Source: an uncultured Methanosarcinales archaeon
GTDB lineage: Archaea; Nanobdellota; Nanobdellia; Woesearchaeales; UBA11576
Length of the DNA: 64,000 nucleotides
Assembly (NCBI GenBank): GCA_964563755.1
Contig: CAZLYC010000001.1
Span: 11,548 to 75,547, forward strand
Direction of reading: 5' to 3'
Of this stretch, positions 3,199 through 50,619 are shown piece after piece; the first letter of the stretch is position 1, and each line of letters starts with the position of its first letter. The notes beneath the pieces are model-generated. The model was not told the DNA's origin. It made no database searches and saw only the letters and a list, made by a program, of their open reading frames with translations. The position numbers and the translations under genes were made by a program.

Positions 3199-3459
3199 AT
3201 GGGCGTGTTCATAAGAACTATAATGATAATAACAATAGTCGGACTATTACTTCTTGATTTAAGCGTAGTCTTGCTCGCAAAAGGACACGATATGGAACAC
3301 TGCAAAACTTCGCTAATGCAGAAAGGATACAGTCCTGAAAAAGTTCAGGAAGGATGCCAATTCCCTCAAGACCTAGTCGATAATAGATATATAATATACG
3401 GAATTTCAGCCACCCTTATATTGGCAGCAGCAATAACATTTATAGCTAAAGGAGATTAG
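3199..3459 (+). CDS. Small membrane protein with two TM helices
   Basis: 86 aa. Hydrophobic segments IMIITIVGLLLLDLSVVLLA and ISATLILAAAITFIA. Confidence 0.35.
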   Translation: MGVFIRTIMIITIVGLLLLDLSVVLLAKGHDMEHCKTSLMQKGYSPEKVQEGCQFPQDLVDNRYIIYGISATLILAAAITFIAKGD

Positions 3460-3470
3460 TTTTATATACC
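3460..3470 (+). promoter_or_regulatory. Archaeal TATA-box-like element upstream of the tRNA gene
   Basis: tttatata lies about 25 nt upstream of the tRNA 5' end at 3494. Confidence 0.4.
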
Positions 3471-3493
3471 AGTCAAATTTTACAAAACTATAC

Positions 3494-3656
3494 GAGGGGG
3501 TGCCGGAGTGGCCAAACGGGACAGTTTTTAGTGTCTCTCAGGCACTGAAAGTTCAAACTCAAGTTAGTTGAGTGCTGAGGCTTATCGCCAGTGAAGAACT
3601 CCTATGGGCCATCTGTTGGCTTAGTGCCTACTAGGGTTCAAATCCCTACCCCCTCA
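3494..3656 (+). tRNA. Intron-containing tRNA gene; long variable arm suggests a class II tRNA (Leu or Ser); isotype unresolved
   Basis: - 5' acceptor strand GAGGGGG (3494-3500) pairs with CCCCCTC (3649-3655); discriminator A at 3656.
- Canonical T-arm TAGGG-TTCAAAT-CCCTA; D-arm CCGG..GGCCAAA.
- Anticodon-stem candidates GACAG/CTGTT, followed by a 14-nt variable region.
- The precursor is 163 nt, so about 75-80 nt must be intronic.
- Poly-T follows and no CCA is encoded.
- No single-intron splice I tried gives a loop consistent with a class II tRNA. Confidence 0.6.
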
Positions 3657-3697
3657 TTTTTTAGAAAAAAAAATGAAGTAAAACATGGGCGGCGTTC

Positions 3698-3710
3698 GCA
3701 CCTTCGGTGC
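3698..3710 (+). other. Stable GC hairpin (GCACC-UUC-GGUGC) about 30 nt upstream of the PHP gene
   Basis: Perfect 5-bp stem with a UUCG-like loop, embedded in GGGCGGCG...CCACCC, which could extend the helix. Confidence 0.3.
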
Positions 3711-3739
3711 TCAGCCACCCGATTTGAGGAAGAAAATAT

Positions 3740-4537
3740 ATGAAAATTGATTATCACATTCATTCTGATACATCATCAGACAATAAAATAAAACCAAAAG
3801 AGATATACGAAGAAGCAGAGAAGAAAGGCATAAAAGACGTCTGCGTCACATGCCACCACGAGCCTTCTGAAGTCATGAAAAACGAGTTCAAGCAGTCTCT
3901 GACAAAAGAGAAGCTTGATGCTATAAGAAAAGATGTTTCTGAACTCAACAAGAAAGGCACAGTGAAGATGCATCTCGGGGTAGAGATGTCATACACGGAA
4001 GCAGAAGAAGAATACATAAGACAATACCTGAAGGAAAACAAGTTTGATTTCGTACTTGGTTCCATACATTATGTTCTCGGAATAAAGATAGCAGAAGTGA
4101 AGAACAGGGATAAAGTGAAAGACCCTGATGCACTCATGAAAGAATATTTCAGGCTCTTGAAAAAAGCCATAAGCTCAAGACTATTCGATGTAATAGCACA
4201 TATAGACATATGCAAGCTCATGGTACCTGAGCCGAACCATGCGGTCTGGACAGCAGAGTGGAAAGATGTCGCAAGACTGCTTCATGACAACCATGTCGGA
4301 TTCGAACTCAACACAAGCCACGTCAAGTACAAGCCAGGAGACATATACCCTTCCCAGAATATACTGAATATCCTTACCGGAGAAAAAGAGCAAGTAATAA
4401 CACTTGGCAGCGACGCACACAAGCCAGAAGACATCGGAAGGATGCTAAACGAAGCAGAAATCATGCTTAAACAGCTCGGAGTGAAAAATATATATAAGTT
4501 CGAGCATAGAACACCTATAAAGGTAACAATCAACTAA
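3740..4537 (+). CDS. PHP-domain (histidinol-phosphatase-like) metal-dependent phosphoesterase
   Basis: N-terminal MKIDYHIHSDTS matches the PHP motif, and further His/Asp/Glu metal ligands are spaced through the 265 aa. Confidence 0.65.
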   Translation: MKIDYHIHSDTSSDNKIKPKEIYEEAEKKGIKDVCVTCHHEPSEVMKNEFKQSLTKEKLDAIRKDVSELNKKGTVKMHLGVEMSYTEAEEEYIRQYLKENKFDFVLGSIHYVLGIKIAEVKNRDKVKDPDALMKEYFRLLKKAISSRLFDVIAHIDICKLMVPEPNHAVWTAEWKDVARLLHDNHVGFELNTSHVKYKPGDIYPSQNILNILTGEKEQVITLGSDAHKPEDIGRMLNEAEIMLKQLGVKNIYKFEHRTPIKVTIN

Positions 4538-4553: not shown

Positions 4554-5888
4554 ATGACATTAGAGATATGCGCGGTCGGCGGATACAACGAAGTAGGAAA
4601 GAACATGACCGCAATAAGAGTAGATGATGAAGTCGTACTCATAGACATGGGACTGCATCTTGACCCATACATAAAATACACAGAAGATGACGAACAGCAC
4701 GTTCTCAGCACAGCAGTGCTAACTAACATAGGAGCAATACCCGACATAAAGCCGATAGCTGAATGGAAAAAGATGGTAAAAGTGATAATACCGACTCACG
4801 CACACCTGGATCACGTGGGCGCCGTGCCATACTTATCAAACGAGTTCAAAGCACCGATAATCTGCACGCCGTTCACGGCAGCAGTCCTCGAGGCGATATG
4901 CAGGGATGATAAGATAAAGCTCAACAACAAGATAAAGATACTCAACATGAACTCTATCTACAAGGTATCCAACAAGATAACGATAGAATTCATCAATGCG
5001 ACGCACTCGACACCCCAGACAGTCATGGTAGCAGTGCACACTCCATATGGAGTGGTGCTTTACGCATCTGACTTCAAGTTCGACAACCACCCTGTCCTCG
5101 GAAAGAAGACAGACTTCACCAAGCTTAAACAGCTCGGCAAAAAGAAAGTCATATGCCTGATATGCGACAGCACAAAGGCAGCGCAGGCGATGAAGACACC
5201 TTCAGAACAGGTCGCAAGAGAGATGCTTAAAGACGTAATGCTCGCGACAGACTCAGAAGGTAGAGCAGTCATAGTAACGACATTCAGCTCGCACCTCGCG
5301 AGGCTCACATCCATAGTTGAATTCGGACAGAAACTAAACAGGAAGATAGTATTCCTTGGCAGGAGCCTGGCAAAATATGTAGAGGCCGGCGAGAAGATAA
5401 AGCTCGTGAACTTCTCAAAGAAAGTCATGATAGTGAAATACGGAAAAGACATAGGCAGAAAACTAAAGATGATACAAAGAGAGCCTCACAAATACCTCAT
5501 CGTCTGCACAGGACATCAGGGAGAGCCGAAATCCGTGCTTGGAAAGATATCACGTGGAGTGTTCGACTTCAAGTTCAATAAAGAGGACCATATAATATTC
5601 TCTTGCACTGTAATCCCCACTCCTCTTAATCAGGCGAACAGGGACGCTCTTGAGAAGAGCCTAAAATCACATGGAGTCAGGATATTCAAGGACATACACG
5701 CATCCGGGCATCCGTCAAGGGAAGACTGCCGAGAACTCATAAATATGGTCAAGCCACAGCACATAATACCATGTCACGTCGACATGACTATGGCTTCTGG
5801 CCTGTCGGATTTGGCAGTAGAACTTGGTTATAGCACGGGAGAACAAGTGCATCTGATGCAGAACGGGAAGATGCTACGGCTTCTTTAG
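4554..5888 (+). CDS. rnj: Archaeal RNase J-like ribonuclease (metallo-beta-lactamase plus beta-CASP)
   Basis: HxHxDH motif IPTHAHLDHVGAVPYL. Later Asp/His motifs of the beta-CASP fold are present. The length (444 aa) is typical of archaeal RNase J. Confidence 0.75.
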   Translation: MTLEICAVGGYNEVGKNMTAIRVDDEVVLIDMGLHLDPYIKYTEDDEQHVLSTAVLTNIGAIPDIKPIAEWKKMVKVIIPTHAHLDHVGAVPYLSNEFKAPIICTPFTAAVLEAICRDDKIKLNNKIKILNMNSIYKVSNKITIEFINATHSTPQTVMVAVHTPYGVVLYASDFKFDNHPVLGKKTDFTKLKQLGKKKVICLICDSTKAAQAMKTPSEQVAREMLKDVMLATDSEGRAVIVTTFSSHLARLTSIVEFGQKLNRKIVFLGRSLAKYVEAGEKIKLVNFSKKVMIVKYGKDIGRKLKMIQREPHKYLIVCTGHQGEPKSVLGKISRGVFDFKFNKEDHIIFSCTVIPTPLNQANRDALEKSLKSHGVRIFKDIHASGHPSREDCRELINMVKPQHIIPCHVDMTMASGLSDLAVELGYSTGEQVHLMQNGKMLRLL

Positions 5889-13104: not shown

Positions 13105-13753
13105 TTAAGGCCTCATCCATCTAATCTCATAATATGTGACGTCCCCTTCGTCATCTACAACTCCAATCAGAAGACGTTTCTTTGTGGAATGCGCAACCCT
13201 GTTCTTCGCAGAAAAATCATACCAAGTTATCTGCTCGCCCTCGTGGACAGGATATATTATCCATCTTGCGTGGTCCTCGCCTGGCTTCACCCCTCGGTCA
13301 TACACACGGAAATCCGCGCCGAACTTAAGGGCAGTCTTTATGATGTAACCCCTGTTCCTTATATCCTTAAAAACCATATACCTAATCCAGAAATTAGGCT
13401 CCACTTTCTTCGCCTTCTTGATAAAATCATCCTTTGAAATCTGCTTGTCCTTGTCATCGATAACCTTGAGCCTGCCCTTCTCGATAAGATAAAGAGCTTC
13501 AAGCAAAGAGAGCTGGACCTTGCCTTCCTCAATCATGTTGCCGAAACGGCTCTGATTATAGAACTCCCTAGCCTCATCACTAGATTCAGCAATTACACGC
13601 TCGCGAGCAAAAACTGCAAGAACGACTGACTTTGGCTTCTTCTGCTCCTCCTTTGGAGCATCCTTCATCTCGACTGGCGAGATAGTCTCTGAAACCATTG
13701 CAGCCGATTCATCGGTCTCTGCAGGCGCCTCGACTTTCTTCTTGCGGGGCATG
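13105..13753 (-). CDS. endA: tRNA-splicing endonuclease EndA
   Basis: The C-terminal catalytic domain carries the conserved ALKFGADFRVYDRG...H...K block. Start chosen at ATG 13753 (MPRKKK...). Confidence 0.85.
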
Positions 13754-20417: not shown

Positions 20418-20520
20418 AGCCCCCGGCGAGAGTTGCACTCGCGACCTTCTGCTTATTGCCCGTCAGTACCACAAAGCAACTGACTCGAGGCAGACACTAT
20501 AGCTACTAAGCCACGGGGGC
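20418..20520 (-). tRNA. Intron-containing tRNA-like gene; isotype ambiguous
   Basis: - Minus-strand read: acceptor GCCCCCG/CGGGGGC, D-stem GCTT/TAGT.
- Anticodon stem TCTGC/GCAGA, separated by 37 nt (7-nt loop plus 30-nt intron).
- 5-nt variable loop AGGTC; T-arm GCGAG-TGCAACT-CTCGC, an atypical T-loop.
- Poly-T follows.
- A canonical 37/38 splice gives anticodon CGA (Ser), which is incompatible with the short variable arm.
- Non-canonical splices give CGU (Thr) or CAU (Met/Ile). Confidence 0.5.
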
Positions 20521-50398: not shown

Positions 50399-50494
50399 GG
50401 CCCTGTAGCGCAGCTTGGATAGCGCGACTGCCTTCTAAGGCAGAAAAAGCTAAAGGAAAGCAGTAGGTCGTGGGTTCAAATCCCATCAGGGCCG
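50399..50494 (+). tRNA. tRNA-Arg (anticodon UCU) with a ~21-nt intron at the canonical 37/38 position
   Basis: Acceptor GGCCCTG/CAGGGCC, D-arm GCGC-AGCTTGGATA-GCGC, anticodon stem ACTGC...GCAGT, loop CTTCTA|A, intron AGGCAGAAAAAGCTAAAGGAA, variable loop AGGTC, T-arm GTGGG-TTCAAAT-CCCAT, discriminator G. Confidence 0.8.
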
Positions 50495-50497
50495 TAT

Positions 50498-50619
50498 GGC
50501 GGCGTCGCCAAATCCGGTAAGGCAATCGCCTGCAGACTGGACACAACGCTGTGTCGAGCGCGAAAGCGCGATGAGAGGAAGACAGCGATCATTTGGGGGT
50601 TCAAATCCCTCCGCCGCCT
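50498..50619 (+). tRNA. tRNA-Cys (anticodon GCA) with a ~48-nt intron containing a GNRA-capped hairpin
   Basis: Acceptor GGCGGCG/CGCCGCC with discriminator U (typical of Cys). Anticodon stem ATCGC...GCGAT, loop CTGCAG|A. The intron includes GCGCGAAAGCGCG. Variable loop CATTT, T-arm GGGGG-TTCAAAT-CCCTC, then poly-T. It starts 3 nt after tRNA-Arg. Confidence 0.75.

What the first reader, a model, noticed from the sequence alone, without database searches (positions are those of the whole stretch)
3494..3656. tRNA gene with an unusually long (~75-80 nt) intron and an unresolved isotype, in a window that also encodes EndA
Acceptor, D-arm, T-arm and discriminator are unambiguous. The 5' and 3' halves are separated so that the precursor is 163 nt. 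A 14-nt variable region argues for a class II tRNA (Leu or Ser).

Yet no single splice between the best anticodon-stem halves (GACAG/CTGTT) gives a Leu or Ser anticodon. The inserted sequence also contains its own hairpins (TAGTG...CACTG; CTCAA-GTTAG-TTGAG).

This points to a non-canonical intron position, more than one intron, or an intron-encoded structured RNA. The splicing endonuclease gene (13105-13753) is in the same window.
Basis: seen in the sequence. Interest (0 to 1): 0.6.

Follow-up and report, generated by a model that had tools for sequence, protein, structure and literature searches.

The report
Two-intron leucine tRNA gene, resolved
The puzzling 163-base tRNA gene is an ordinary-for-its-lineage archaeal leucine tRNA (anticodon CAA) broken by two separate introns rather than one long one, a gene design shared by dozens of related DPANN archaea; the second intron also carries a conserved kink-turn hairpin of unknown role.

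Summary
Window 3494-3656 (+) is a class II tRNA gene with 79 extra bases. These are two introns, not one: a 32-nt intron between tRNA positions 30/31 (3525-3556) and a 47-nt intron at the canonical 37/38 site (3564-3610). A 7-nt micro-exon, ACUCAAG (3557-3563), lies between them and carries the anticodon CAA. Removing both gives a clean 84-nt tRNA-Leu(CAA).

[quoted passage not shown] A scan of 185,579 genomes found 46 parsable Leu-CAA homologues (window included), almost all in Woesearchaeota/Nanoarchaeota. Four have no intron and show exactly the predicted junctions, 15 have only the 37/38 intron, 1 has only the 30/31 intron, and 26 have both. The BHB helices covary strongly, and the base opposite wobble position 34 tracks the anticodon.

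A catalytically intact EndA, a TATA-like box and a T-run support a working gene. This is a new member of a known kind (multi-intron archaeal tRNA).

One less ordinary point: intron 2 folds into a conserved kink-turn hairpin. L7Ae binding is inferred. A box C/D-like guide role for Cm34 was tested and is not supported beyond chance.

The parts
3461..3468 (+). TATA-like box TTTATATA, starting 33 nt upstream of tRNA position 1
   Evidence: Read directly from the sequence. Across 97 homologous loci, TATA-like motifs peak at -33 to -30. Promoter function is inferred.
3494..3524 (+). Exon 1: tRNA positions 1-30 (acceptor 5' strand, D-arm, 5' part of the anticodon stem up to G30)
   Evidence: In-silico splicing gives a clean ARAGORN tRNA-Leu(CAA). 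Rfam tRNA model hit at 35.4 bits.
3525..3556 (+). Intron 1: 32 nt, between positions 30/31 (non-canonical). Relaxed HBh'-type BHB with central helix GGAC 3519-3522 / GUUC 3551-3554, bulges AGU 3523-3525 and AAA 3555-3557, and inner helix 3526-3536 / 3540-3550
   Evidence: Top-ranked motif in an unbiased BHB scan of the precursor. In 30 homologues the central helix is 100% paired, and all 9 tested inner-helix pairs show compensatory changes. 0/500 shuffles reach the observed score; slid controls give 29-50% paired against 93% observed. Absent in 19 Leu-CAA homologues, which continue directly ...GGGACAG|ACTCAAG.
3557..3563 (+). Exon 2: 7-nt micro-exon ACUCAAG = positions 31-37; anticodon CAA at 3560-3562
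   Evidence: The intronless homologues L041, L081 and L105 read GGGACAG-ACTCAAG-ATCTGTT without interruption.
3564..3610 (+). Intron 2: 47 nt, canonical 37/38 position. BHB with central helix CUCA 3558-3561 / UGGG 3605-3608, bulges AGU 3562-3564 and CCA 3609-3611, and inner helix UAG 3565-3567 / CUA 3602-3604
   Evidence: With intron 1 removed, ARAGORN -i calls tRNA-Leu(CAA) with a 47-nt intron. In 57 homologues (Leu-CAA and Leu-UAG) 87% of cells are paired and 0/500 shuffles reach the score. Base 34 covaries with the intron base opposite it: C-G 26, U-A 22, U.G 6.
3570..3601 (+). Kink-turn-like hairpin inside intron 2. NC-stem 5' strand GAGUGCU 3570-3576, overlapping a D-like box CUGA 3575-3578; C-stem GGC 3579-3581 / GCC 3587-3589; loop 3582-3586; 3-nt bulge AGU 3590-3592; GA 3593-3594; NC-stem 3' strand AGAACUC 3595-3601
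   Evidence: The same layout appears in most long Leu-CAA 37/38 introns. The signature bases (GA, U-GA) are invariant or nearly so in 22 sequences. The C-stem is 100% paired with compensatory changes, and the NC stem is 65% paired. L7Ae binding is inferred, not tested.
3611..3656 (+). Exon 3: positions 38-73 (3' anticodon stem, long variable arm, T-arm, acceptor 3' strand, discriminator A73)
3657..3662 (+). T6 run directly after the discriminator (archaeal terminator-like)
   Evidence: Read from the sequence. 53 of 95 homologues have a T run of 4 or more within 4 nt of the 3' end. Function is inferred.
13105..13752 (-). EndA, catalytic-type tRNA splicing endonuclease subunit (215 aa from the ATG), with a roughly 45-aa Lys/Glu-rich N-terminal extension
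   Evidence: Pfam PF01974 at 1.4e-28 and PF02778 at 6.3e-16. Best solved relatives are the N. equitans alpha subunit 3iey_A (1.2e-40) and M. jannaschii alpha4 1a79 (3.4e-33). The residues aligned with the catalytic-triad motifs in that alignment (RVY, DHA, HSTKK) are conserved; the triad assignment rests on my own knowledge of the enzyme. No paralogue in the window.

Best explanation
Window 3494-3656 is a functional tRNA-Leu(CAA) gene of a DPANN archaeon (Woesearchaeota / GTDB Nanoarchaeota). It is split into three exons by two protein-spliced BHB introns: 32 nt at position 30/31 and 47 nt at position 37/38.

Shown here:
- The exon/intron boundaries.
- The two BHB motifs.
- Their conservation and covariation across relatives.
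- The existence of natural variants with no intron and with each intron alone.

Inferred:
- The precursor is transcribed from a TATA box about 30 nt upstream.
- The EndA encoded at 13105-13752 cuts in the four 3-nt bulges, and an RtcB-type ligase joins the three exons.
- Splicing is probably stepwise. The 7-nt middle exon would otherwise be held only by 4-5 base pairs to intron sequence.
- The first intron's central helix borrows G25-C28, so the anticodon stem, which is the outer helix of a strict canonical BHB for intron 2, can form only after intron 1 is removed.
- Intron 2 folds into one irregular rod (BHB, imperfect stem, kink-turn, capped stem). It most likely binds L7Ae, which would stabilise the splicing-competent fold or the excised intron.
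For: - In-silico removal of 3525-3556 and 3564-3610 gives an 84-nt tRNA-Leu(CAA) with a perfect ACAGA/UCUGU anticodon stem, a CUCAAGA loop, a long variable arm and A73.
- An unbiased scan of all BHB geometries ranks the intron-1 motif first and also recovers the intron-2 motif.
- The genome scan gave 109 loci. Of 46 parsed Leu-CAA genes, 4 have no intron and show exactly the predicted junctions, 15 have intron 2 only, 1 has intron 1 only, and 26 have both. Leu-UAG genes use the same two sites.
- Covariation for BHB1: 93% of cells paired, 9/9 inner-helix pairs with compensatory changes, 0/500 shuffles reach the score.
- Covariation for BHB2: 87% paired, base 34 covaries with the intron, and the 31-39 pair switches between A-U and G-C.
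- K-turn C-stem: 100% paired with compensatory changes.
- EndA has both Pfam domains, and the residues aligned with the catalytic-triad motifs are conserved.
- TATA-like box at -33 and a T6 run, both recurrent in homologues.
- All four tRNA genes in the window carry introns.
- Kaneta et al. 2018 (PMC5829648) report DPANN lineages rich in disrupted tRNA genes that prediction tools miss.
Against: - There are no expression or processing data. Nothing shows that mature tRNA is made from this locus.
- The nearest-neighbour energy model does not prefer the double-BHB conformer: -48.6 (hand model) or -54.7 kcal/mol (constrained), against an MFE of -63.9. The MFE fold pairs the anticodon loop with UUGAGU of intron 2 instead.
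- The intron-1 BHB lacks an outer helix (1 bp), so it needs a broad-specificity endonuclease. The window's EndA shows no insertion relative to the strict M. jannaschii alpha4 enzyme in the phmmer alignment, and no beta subunit is present in the window.
- The splicing order, the ligase and L7Ae binding are all inferences.
Confidence: 0.92

Rival explanations
1. The gene has a single long intron (about 77-82 nt) and encodes another tRNA, such as Leu(UAG), an ochre-suppressor-like UUA tRNA, or Lys(UUU), read from the U-run right after GACAG.
For: - The Rfam model and ARAGORN -i can each absorb the whole insert as one insertion (one search gives a spurious Gly-GCC call with an 81-nt intron).
- In the brute-force test, 13 of 676 single deletions are called Leu(UAG), 46 'Stop(UUA)' and 22 Lys(UUU).
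Against: - The Leu(UAG)-like product has a U.U mismatch in the anticodon stem, a pyrimidine at position 37, a shifted register and 86 nt.
- No BHB exists at any of those junctions.
- Intronless and single-intron homologues show the ACTCAAG micro-exon in line with both flanks.
- A class II body does not fit Lys.
Confidence: 0.02
2. The locus is a decaying pseudogene whose insertions are junk.
For: - Default tRNA finders miss it.
- The thermodynamic MFE fold is not the BHB fold.
Against: - The same architecture is kept in dozens of genomes, with compensatory changes in every intron helix.
- The exons are intact and fold into a flawless cloverleaf.
- Promoter-like and terminator-like signals are present.
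- Related MAGs show one Leu-CAA gene of this type per genome in the scan.
Confidence: 0.03
3. Intron 2 is a minimal, single-K-turn box C/D-like guide RNA (D-like CUGA, capped stem, C-like GUGAAGA). Its upstream segment UUGAGU would pair with the anticodon loop ACUCAA and direct 2'-O-methylation of C34, as the pre-tRNA-Trp intron does in Haloferax and Pyrococcus.
For: - UUGAGU is nearly invariant, and ACUCAA/UUGAGU is the hairpin that RNAalifold and the MFE fold predict.
- C34 would pair with the 5th nucleotide upstream of the D-like box (derived from the sequence; the offset is conserved).
- C34 of tRNA-Leu(CAA) is a predicted C/D sRNA target in Pyrococcus, and the tRNA-Trp intron guides Cm34/Um39 (PMC7994747).
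Against: - The complementarity is only 6-7 bp, no better than other matches of the same segment within the same pre-tRNA.
- There is no second C'/D' or terminal C/D motif.
- The D-like box is degenerate (NNGA) in homologues.
- Where GAGUG varies, the change is compensated in the intron's own 3' strand, not toward the anticodon loop: L068 U-A to C-G, L107 G-C to A-U.
- The Leu-UAG introns with the same K-turn have no consistent target.
- No Rfam C/D family matches, even at E up to 10.
Confidence: 0.15

Closest known systems
Multiple-intron tRNA genes of Thermoproteales (Sugahara et al. 2007/2008, as summarised in PMC4033280 and PMC4090602)
   Same: - Up to three BHB introns per tRNA gene.
- Introns at non-canonical positions with relaxed HBh'/hBH motifs.
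- Missed by standard tRNA finders.
- Intron gain and loss between close relatives.
   Different: - The lineage here is DPANN (Woesearchaeota/Nanoarchaeota), mesophile-like and AT-rich, not Crenarchaeota.
- The endonuclease in the window is a short alpha-type subunit. No beta paralogue lies nearby, and it has no insertion relative to M. jannaschii in the alignment. The crenarchaeal enzyme is (alpha-beta)2 with the CSL loop.
- I could not confirm from the papers I could read whether position 30/31 has been catalogued before.
Disrupted tRNA genes of DPANN archaea (Kaneta et al. 2018, PMC5829648)
   Same: That paper predicted tRNA genes for one Woesearchaeota genome. It reported that DPANN lineages with alpha4-type EndA carrying an 'L3' loop have many disrupted tRNA genes, including multi-intron ones, and that tRNA sets remain incomplete. 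This locus is the kind of gene meant.
   Different: - The text I could read does not describe this particular Leu-CAA 30/31 + 37/38 architecture, its distribution, or the K-turn in the intron.
- I could not establish whether the window's EndA has the L3 loop.
Intron-encoded box C/D RNAs: pre-tRNA-Trp of Haloferax/Pyrococcus and the tRNA-Met intron of Nanoarchaeum equitans (PMC7994747, PMC3491384)
   Same: - A 37/38 tRNA intron that carries K-turn-forming GA motifs.
- Complementarity to the tRNA's own anticodon loop.
[quoted passage not shown]
   Different: - Only one K-turn is present here.
- The boxes are degenerate.
- The guide-like complementarity is 6-7 bp and not above chance.
- The covariation favours an intramolecular rod over a guide.
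Canonical archaeal 37/38 tRNA intron with a strict hBHBh' motif
   Same: Intron 2 sits at 37/38. It has a 4-bp anticodon-loop/intron helix flanked by two 3-nt bulges, and cleavage falls after the second bulge base on each strand.
   Different: Its outer helix (the anticodon stem) is interrupted by intron 1, so the strict motif exists only after intron 1 is removed.

Membership tests
Archaeal BHB-intron tRNA gene (multi-intron class) | Removing the proposed introns yields a canonical cloverleaf with a 7-nt anticodon loop | tested here: met
   ARAGORN calls an 84-nt tRNA-Leu(CAA) after the double in-silico splice. With only intron 1 removed it calls Leu(CAA) with a 47-nt intron.
Archaeal BHB-intron tRNA gene (multi-intron class) | Each exon-intron boundary pair lies in two 3-nt bulges separated by a 4-bp helix | tested here: met
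   Intron 1: GGAC/GUUC with bulges AGU and AAA. Intron 2: CUCA/UGGG with bulges AGU and CCA. Both are conserved and covary in homologues.
Archaeal BHB-intron tRNA gene (multi-intron class) | A splicing endonuclease (EndA) is encoded by the organism | tested here: met
   13105-13752 (-): PF01974 at 1.4e-28 and PF02778 at 6.3e-16. The residues aligned with the catalytic-triad motifs in the alignments to 3iey_A and 1a79_A are conserved.
Archaeal BHB-intron tRNA gene (multi-intron class) | The precursor is actually cleaved and ligated to a mature tRNA | not testable with these tools
   No RNA-seq or biochemical data are available. A crude motif search found no RtcB signature in the window, which is uninformative.
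Strict hBHBh' substrate (alpha4 / alpha'2-type EndA specificity) | Outer helix h of at least 2-3 bp on the exon side of both bulges | tested here: not met
   For intron 1, h is 1 bp, so it is the relaxed HBh' type. For intron 2, h is 1 bp while intron 1 is present, and becomes the 5-bp anticodon stem once intron 1 is removed.
tRNA-Leu (class II) | Long variable arm, Leu anticodon, A73 discriminator | tested here: met
   Variable region of 14-15 nt with a GGC/GCC stem, anticodon CAA, purine G37 and A73. Recognition by LeuRS was not tested.
Kink-turn (K-turn) RNA motif | Canonical stem, 3-nt bulge, tandem sheared G.A/A.G, then a non-canonical stem | tested here: met
   The sequence layout GA-[GGC..GCC]-AGU-GA is present. 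The GA and U-GA bases are invariant or nearly so, and the C-stem is 100% paired with compensatory changes. The pattern alone is not significant in one sequence: 30 hits in the window against 24.6 expected. The three-dimensional kink and L7Ae binding are not testable here.
Box C/D guide sRNA | Two K-turn/K-loop motifs (C/D and C'/D') with consensus RUGAUGA and CUGA boxes | tested here: not met
   Only one motif is present. In the window it reads CUGA and GUGAAGA. In homologues the D-like box is NNGA and the C-like box is often AUGAAAU. No Rfam C/D family matches at E up to 10.
Box C/D guide sRNA | A guide of about 8-12 nt upstream of box D/D', complementary to a target whose modified base pairs with the 5th nucleotide upstream | tested here: inconclusive
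   UUGAGU pairs with ACUCAA and places C34 at N+5. But the match is 6-7 bp and no better than other matches in the same pre-tRNA, and the Leu-UAG introns have no consistent target.

The most novel reading that the evidence does not exclude
The conserved kink-turn hairpin in the long 37/38 introns of this lineage may be a functional RNP module rather than a passive stem. It is seen in the Leu-CAA and Leu-UAG introns of the homologues and in the Cys intron of this window. Two versions are possible:
- A minimal one-K-turn, D-before-C box C/D-like guide that methylates C34 in cis.
- An L7Ae-dependent clamp that lets an insert-free, apparently alpha4-like EndA process relaxed and interrupted BHB motifs, and that enforces the order of removal of the two introns.
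Probability: 0.15. Interest if true: 0.65.

Novelty: new member of a known kind. Interest (0 to 1): 0.33.

Why it matters
- It resolves an annotation problem. Default tRNA finders miss the gene or give it the wrong isotype. The gene is probably the organism's only decoder dedicated to UUG, so missing it makes a DPANN genome look as if it lacks an essential tRNA. Kaneta et al. 2018 raised exactly this concern.
- The comparative set is a compact natural experiment on tRNA intron gain and loss in DPANN archaea. It includes variants with no intron, with either intron alone, with both, and with a third or fourth site.
- It raises a question about the enzyme. The intron-1 BHB and the neighbouring Thr gene's 35/36 intron need a broad-specificity endonuclease, yet the EndA here shows no insertion relative to the strict M. 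jannaschii enzyme.
- The recurrent kink-turn in the long introns is a concrete, cheap target for an L7Ae-binding or Cm34 experiment.

Tried and rejected
1. Single-intron models. A brute-force test of 676 single deletions gave only defective products (Leu-UAG-like with a U.U mismatch and C37, 'stop' UUA, Lys UUU), with no BHB at the junctions. Rejected.
2. Box C/D guide for Cm34 (Leu-CAA) or Nm39 (Leu-UAG). The N+5 geometry fits C34, and one Leu-UAG intron (L102) has 8 bp against positions 38-43. Across the set, though, the complementarity is short and no better than chance matches. Kept only as a low-probability rival.
3. Rfam search of 3400-3750 at E up to 10. It found only the tRNA model, with no C/D or other family.
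4. Thermodynamic folding of the precursor. The MFE fold does not show the BHBs, so energy alone neither finds nor supports the splice sites. The case rests on geometry and comparison with relatives.
5. K-turn pattern scan of the window. It gave 30 hits against 24.6 expected, so the motif in a single sequence is not evidence. Three of those hits do fall inside tRNA introns, which total only about 180 nt.
6. Search for an EndA beta paralogue (phmmer against all window ORFs) and for L7Ae, fibrillarin, Nop5 and RtcB signature motifs. Nothing was found in the window, which says nothing about the rest of the genome.
7. Literature check on whether position 30/31 is already catalogued. The key paper (PMC1852824) is not held, and the reviews I could read do not mention it.
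8. Not run because not needed: the metagenome scan, the large protein homology searches and structure prediction.

Full report
**Observation.** About 80 extra bases separate GACAG (3520-3524) from CTGTT (3613-3617). ARAGORN in default mode and Rfam at default filters miss the gene. With permissive filters the Rfam tRNA model spans exactly 3494-3656 at 35.4 bits, above the gathering score of 29, and treats 82 nt as one insertion. The T-loop motif occurs three times in the window against 0.1 expected.

**Resolving the gene.** In the middle of the insert, ACUCAAG (3557-3563) reads as A31 plus the first six bases of a Leu anticodon loop (C32 U33 C34 A35 A36 G37). Joining 3494-3524, 3557-3563 and 3611-3656 gives an 84-nt sequence. 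ARAGORN calls it tRNA-Leu(CAA), with a perfect ACAGA/UCUGU anticodon stem and a CUCAAGA loop. With only 3525-3556 removed, ARAGORN -i calls Leu(CAA) with a 47-nt canonical intron. The insert is therefore two introns: 32 nt between positions 30/31 and 47 nt between 37/38, separated by a 7-nt micro-exon.

**Splice motifs.** I scanned the precursor for every possible bulge-helix-bulge geometry (a 4-bp helix flanked by 3-nt bulges on opposite strands, with the cut after the second bulge base), without using the proposed junctions. The top-ranked motif is exactly intron 1. Its central helix is GGAC 3519-3522 / GUUC 3551-3554, its bulges are AGU and AAA, its inner helix has 11 bp, and its outer helix has only 1 bp, which makes it a relaxed HBh' motif. 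The intron-2 motif is also recovered: CUCA 3558-3561 / UGGG 3605-3608, bulges AGU and CCA, inner helix UAG/CUA.

**Comparative test.** I scanned one genome for each of 185,579 species for the 20-mer that ends at the proposed 30/31 junction. This gave 109 loci, nearly all from Woesearchaeota/Nanoarchaeota MAGs. A few bacterial hits are unrelated coding sequence or bacterial tRNAs.

Intron content of the parsed Leu genes, window included among the 46 Leu-CAA genes:

| Gene class | No intron | 37/38 only | 30/31 only | Both |
|---|---|---|---|---|
| Leu-CAA (46) | 4 | 15 | 1 | 26 |
| Leu-UAG (50) | 13 | 20 | 0 | 17 |

- The intronless Leu-CAA genes read GGGACAG-ACTCAAG-ATCTGTT, exactly the predicted spliced junctions.
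- The automated parse flagged a further insert downstream of the anticodon arm in 6 of the double-intron genes and 4 of the 37/38-only genes. Seven of these are T-loop inserts; one (L093) lies in the variable arm and two (L009, L024) look like parsing artefacts.
- Each intron can evidently be processed without the other.

**Covariation.** I used fixed-length extracts anchored on the splice sites, so the alignment cannot be fitted to the structure.

| Element | Sequences | Result |
|---|---|---|
| Intron-1 BHB | 30 | Central helix paired in 100% of sequences; all 9 inner-helix pairs have compensatory changes; 93% of cells paired overall, against 29-50% when the partner is slid; 0 of 500 shuffles reach the observed score |
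| Intron-2 BHB | 57 | 87% paired (slid controls 21-54%), 0/500; the intron base opposite wobble base 34 follows the anticodon (C-G 26, U-A 22, U.G 6); the 31-39 pair switches between A-U and G-C |

This is strong evidence that both introns are maintained as endonuclease substrates and that the locus is not a pseudogene.

**Expression signals and enzyme.**
- TTTATATA begins 33 nt upstream of position 1, where TATA-like boxes peak across the homologues. A T6 run follows the discriminator directly.
- The ORF at 13105-13752 (-) has both EndA Pfam domains.
- It aligns best to the N. equitans catalytic subunit (3iey_A, 1.2e-40) and the M. jannaschii alpha4 enzyme (1a79, 3.4e-33). The residues aligned with the catalytic-triad motifs (RVY, DHA, HSTKK) are conserved; the triad assignment rests on my own knowledge of the enzyme.
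- It has a Lys/Glu-rich N-terminal extension of about 45 aa. It shows no insertion relative to M. jannaschii in the catalytic domain, and it lacks a 6-residue insert that N. equitans has just before the aligned catalytic His.
- No second EndA-like ORF is in the window.
- Kaneta et al. (PMC5829648) report that DPANN EndAs, many of them alpha4-type with an 'L3' loop, go together with heavy tRNA gene disruption. I could not establish whether this protein has L3.

**Mechanism.**
- Shown: the gene model, the two BHBs and their conservation.
- Inferred: EndA cuts the four bulges and an RtcB-type ligase joins the exons.
- Inferred: splicing is probably stepwise. The 7-nt exon is held only by the 4-bp helix to intron 2. 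The intron-1 helix also uses G25-C28, so the anticodon stem, which is the outer helix of a strict BHB for intron 2, can form only once intron 1 is gone.
- Caveat: nearest-neighbour folding does not favour the double-BHB conformer (-48.6 to -54.7 against -63.9 kcal/mol). G.A pairs and protein binding are not modelled in that calculation.

**The structured intron.** Intron 2 forms one irregular rod: the BHB inner helix, a UU bulge, GAGU/ACUC pairs, tandem G.A/A.G, a 3-nt bulge (AGU), and a capped GGC/GCC stem (3570-3601). This is a kink-turn layout.
- It recurs in most long Leu-CAA 37/38 introns, and in some Leu-UAG introns.
- The GA and U-GA bases are invariant or nearly so while the capped stem changes sequence and length.
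- The capped stem is 100% paired with compensatory changes, and the other stem is 65% paired.
- The same design sits in the 48-nt intron of the window's tRNA-Cys gene.
- The bare pattern is common by chance (30 hits against 24.6 expected), so the evidence is the conservation, not the single occurrence.
- L7Ae binding is the natural inference from what is known of archaeal K-turns, but it is untested.

**The box C/D guide idea.** The motif reads as a D-like CUGA, a stem, then a C-like GUGAAGA. The upstream UUGAGU is complementary to the anticodon loop, with C34 at the N+5 position. I therefore tested a guide role, which has precedent in the tRNA-Trp and N. equitans tRNA-Met introns and in Pyrococcus sRNAs that target C34 of tRNA-Leu(CAA) (PMC7994747, PMC3491384). 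The evidence goes against it:
- The complementarity is only 6-7 bp and no better than other matches in the same pre-tRNA.
- The Leu-UAG introns have no consistent target.
- There is only one K-turn.
- Where GAGUG varies, the compensating change is in the intron's own 3' strand (L068, L107).

I keep this reading as a 15% rival.

**Single-intron and pseudogene rivals.** The 676 single deletions give only defective products. Both rivals are rejected.

**Comparison with known systems and verdict.** Multi-intron tRNA genes with relaxed BHB motifs are well known in Thermoproteales (reviews PMC4033280, PMC4090602) and have been flagged in DPANN (PMC5829648). This locus is a new member of that known kind, now with its isotype, boundaries and distribution worked out. 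I could not check whether the 30/31 position has been catalogued before, because the key paper is not held. Interest is modest. The parts most worth following up are the conserved K-turn in the long introns, and how an insert-free EndA handles the relaxed motifs.

Noticed in passing
window 20418-20520 (-): ARAGORN -i calls this tRNA gene Ser(CGA) with a 37/38 intron. The only proper BHB (GCCU/GGGC, 6-bp inner helix) instead places a 30-nt intron at 35/36, inside the anticodon. Splicing there gives a clean 73-nt tRNA-Thr(CGU), which fits its short variable arm. This is a likely isotype mis-annotation trap.
   Followed up: partly
window 50498-50619 (+), K-turn-like hairpin at 50547-50583: A tRNA-Cys(GCA) gene with one 48-nt 37/38 intron; removing it gives a clean 74-nt tRNA. 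The intron contains UCGA-GCGC-GAAA-GCGC-GAU-GA, the same kink-turn hairpin design as intron 2 of the Leu gene. My strict 4/4 BHB scan did not find a perfect central helix at these junctions.
   Followed up: partly
window 50399-50494 (+): A tRNA gene with an insert of about 23 nt, for which ARAGORN cannot assign an anticodon ('tRNA-???'). Read by eye it looks like Arg(UCU) with a 37/38 intron. It ends 3 nt before the Cys gene, so the two may be co-transcribed.
   Followed up: no
L010, L017, L033, L096, L064, L013, L109 (T-loop); L093 (variable arm): The closest relatives (same GAGGGGG acceptor stem) carry a further 22-45-nt insert in the T-loop, apparently at 59/60, which the window's gene lacks. 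L093 has a 46-nt insert in the variable arm. The Leu-CAA gene lineage therefore uses at least four intron sites, with presence and absence varying between close relatives.
   Followed up: partly
window 13105-13752 (-), N-terminal ~45 codons: EndA carries a Lys/Glu-rich, low-complexity N-terminal extension (MPRKKKVEAPAETDES...KEEQKKPK) that is absent from the solved alpha subunits it aligns to. It has no insertion relative to M. jannaschii alpha4 in the catalytic domain. I did not check whether the tail is conserved in relatives or helps bind relaxed BHB substrates.
   Followed up: no
L004, L006, L008, L010, L011 and other loci titled 'uncultured Methanosarcinales archaeon': Many MAGs labelled Methanosarcinales carry the same DPANN-type Leu genes (identical D-arm and anticodon stem, same intron sites) as the Woesearchaeota/Nanoarchaeota MAGs. 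The taxonomic labels of these bins may be wrong.
   Followed up: no
97 homologous loci, positions -3 to -1 upstream of tRNA position 1: Directly upstream of the mature 5' end there is a conserved T-A-T (T 52, A 55 and T 66 of 97). This could be an initiator or RNase P context signal. The window itself has TAC.
   Followed up: no
window 3740-4537 (+) and 4554-5888 (+): Directly downstream of the tRNA lie a PHP-domain protein (PF02811, 3.9e-20) and a metallo-beta-lactamase / beta-CASP RNase J-like protein (Pfam families listed for L001). The same arrangement is on Logan contig SRR14492172_385102, which matches this part of the window.
   Followed up: no
L026, L034, L035, L078, L104 (bacterial MAGs): The 20-mer GGAGTGGCCAAACGGGACAG also occurs in several bacterial genomes, inside what looks like a conserved protein-coding region (similar downstream sequence in all five), not in a tRNA. 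L032, L057 and L094 (Planctomycetota: Phycisphaerales/Phycisphaeraceae) are bacterial class II-like tRNAs with a GTA anticodon loop.
   Followed up: no
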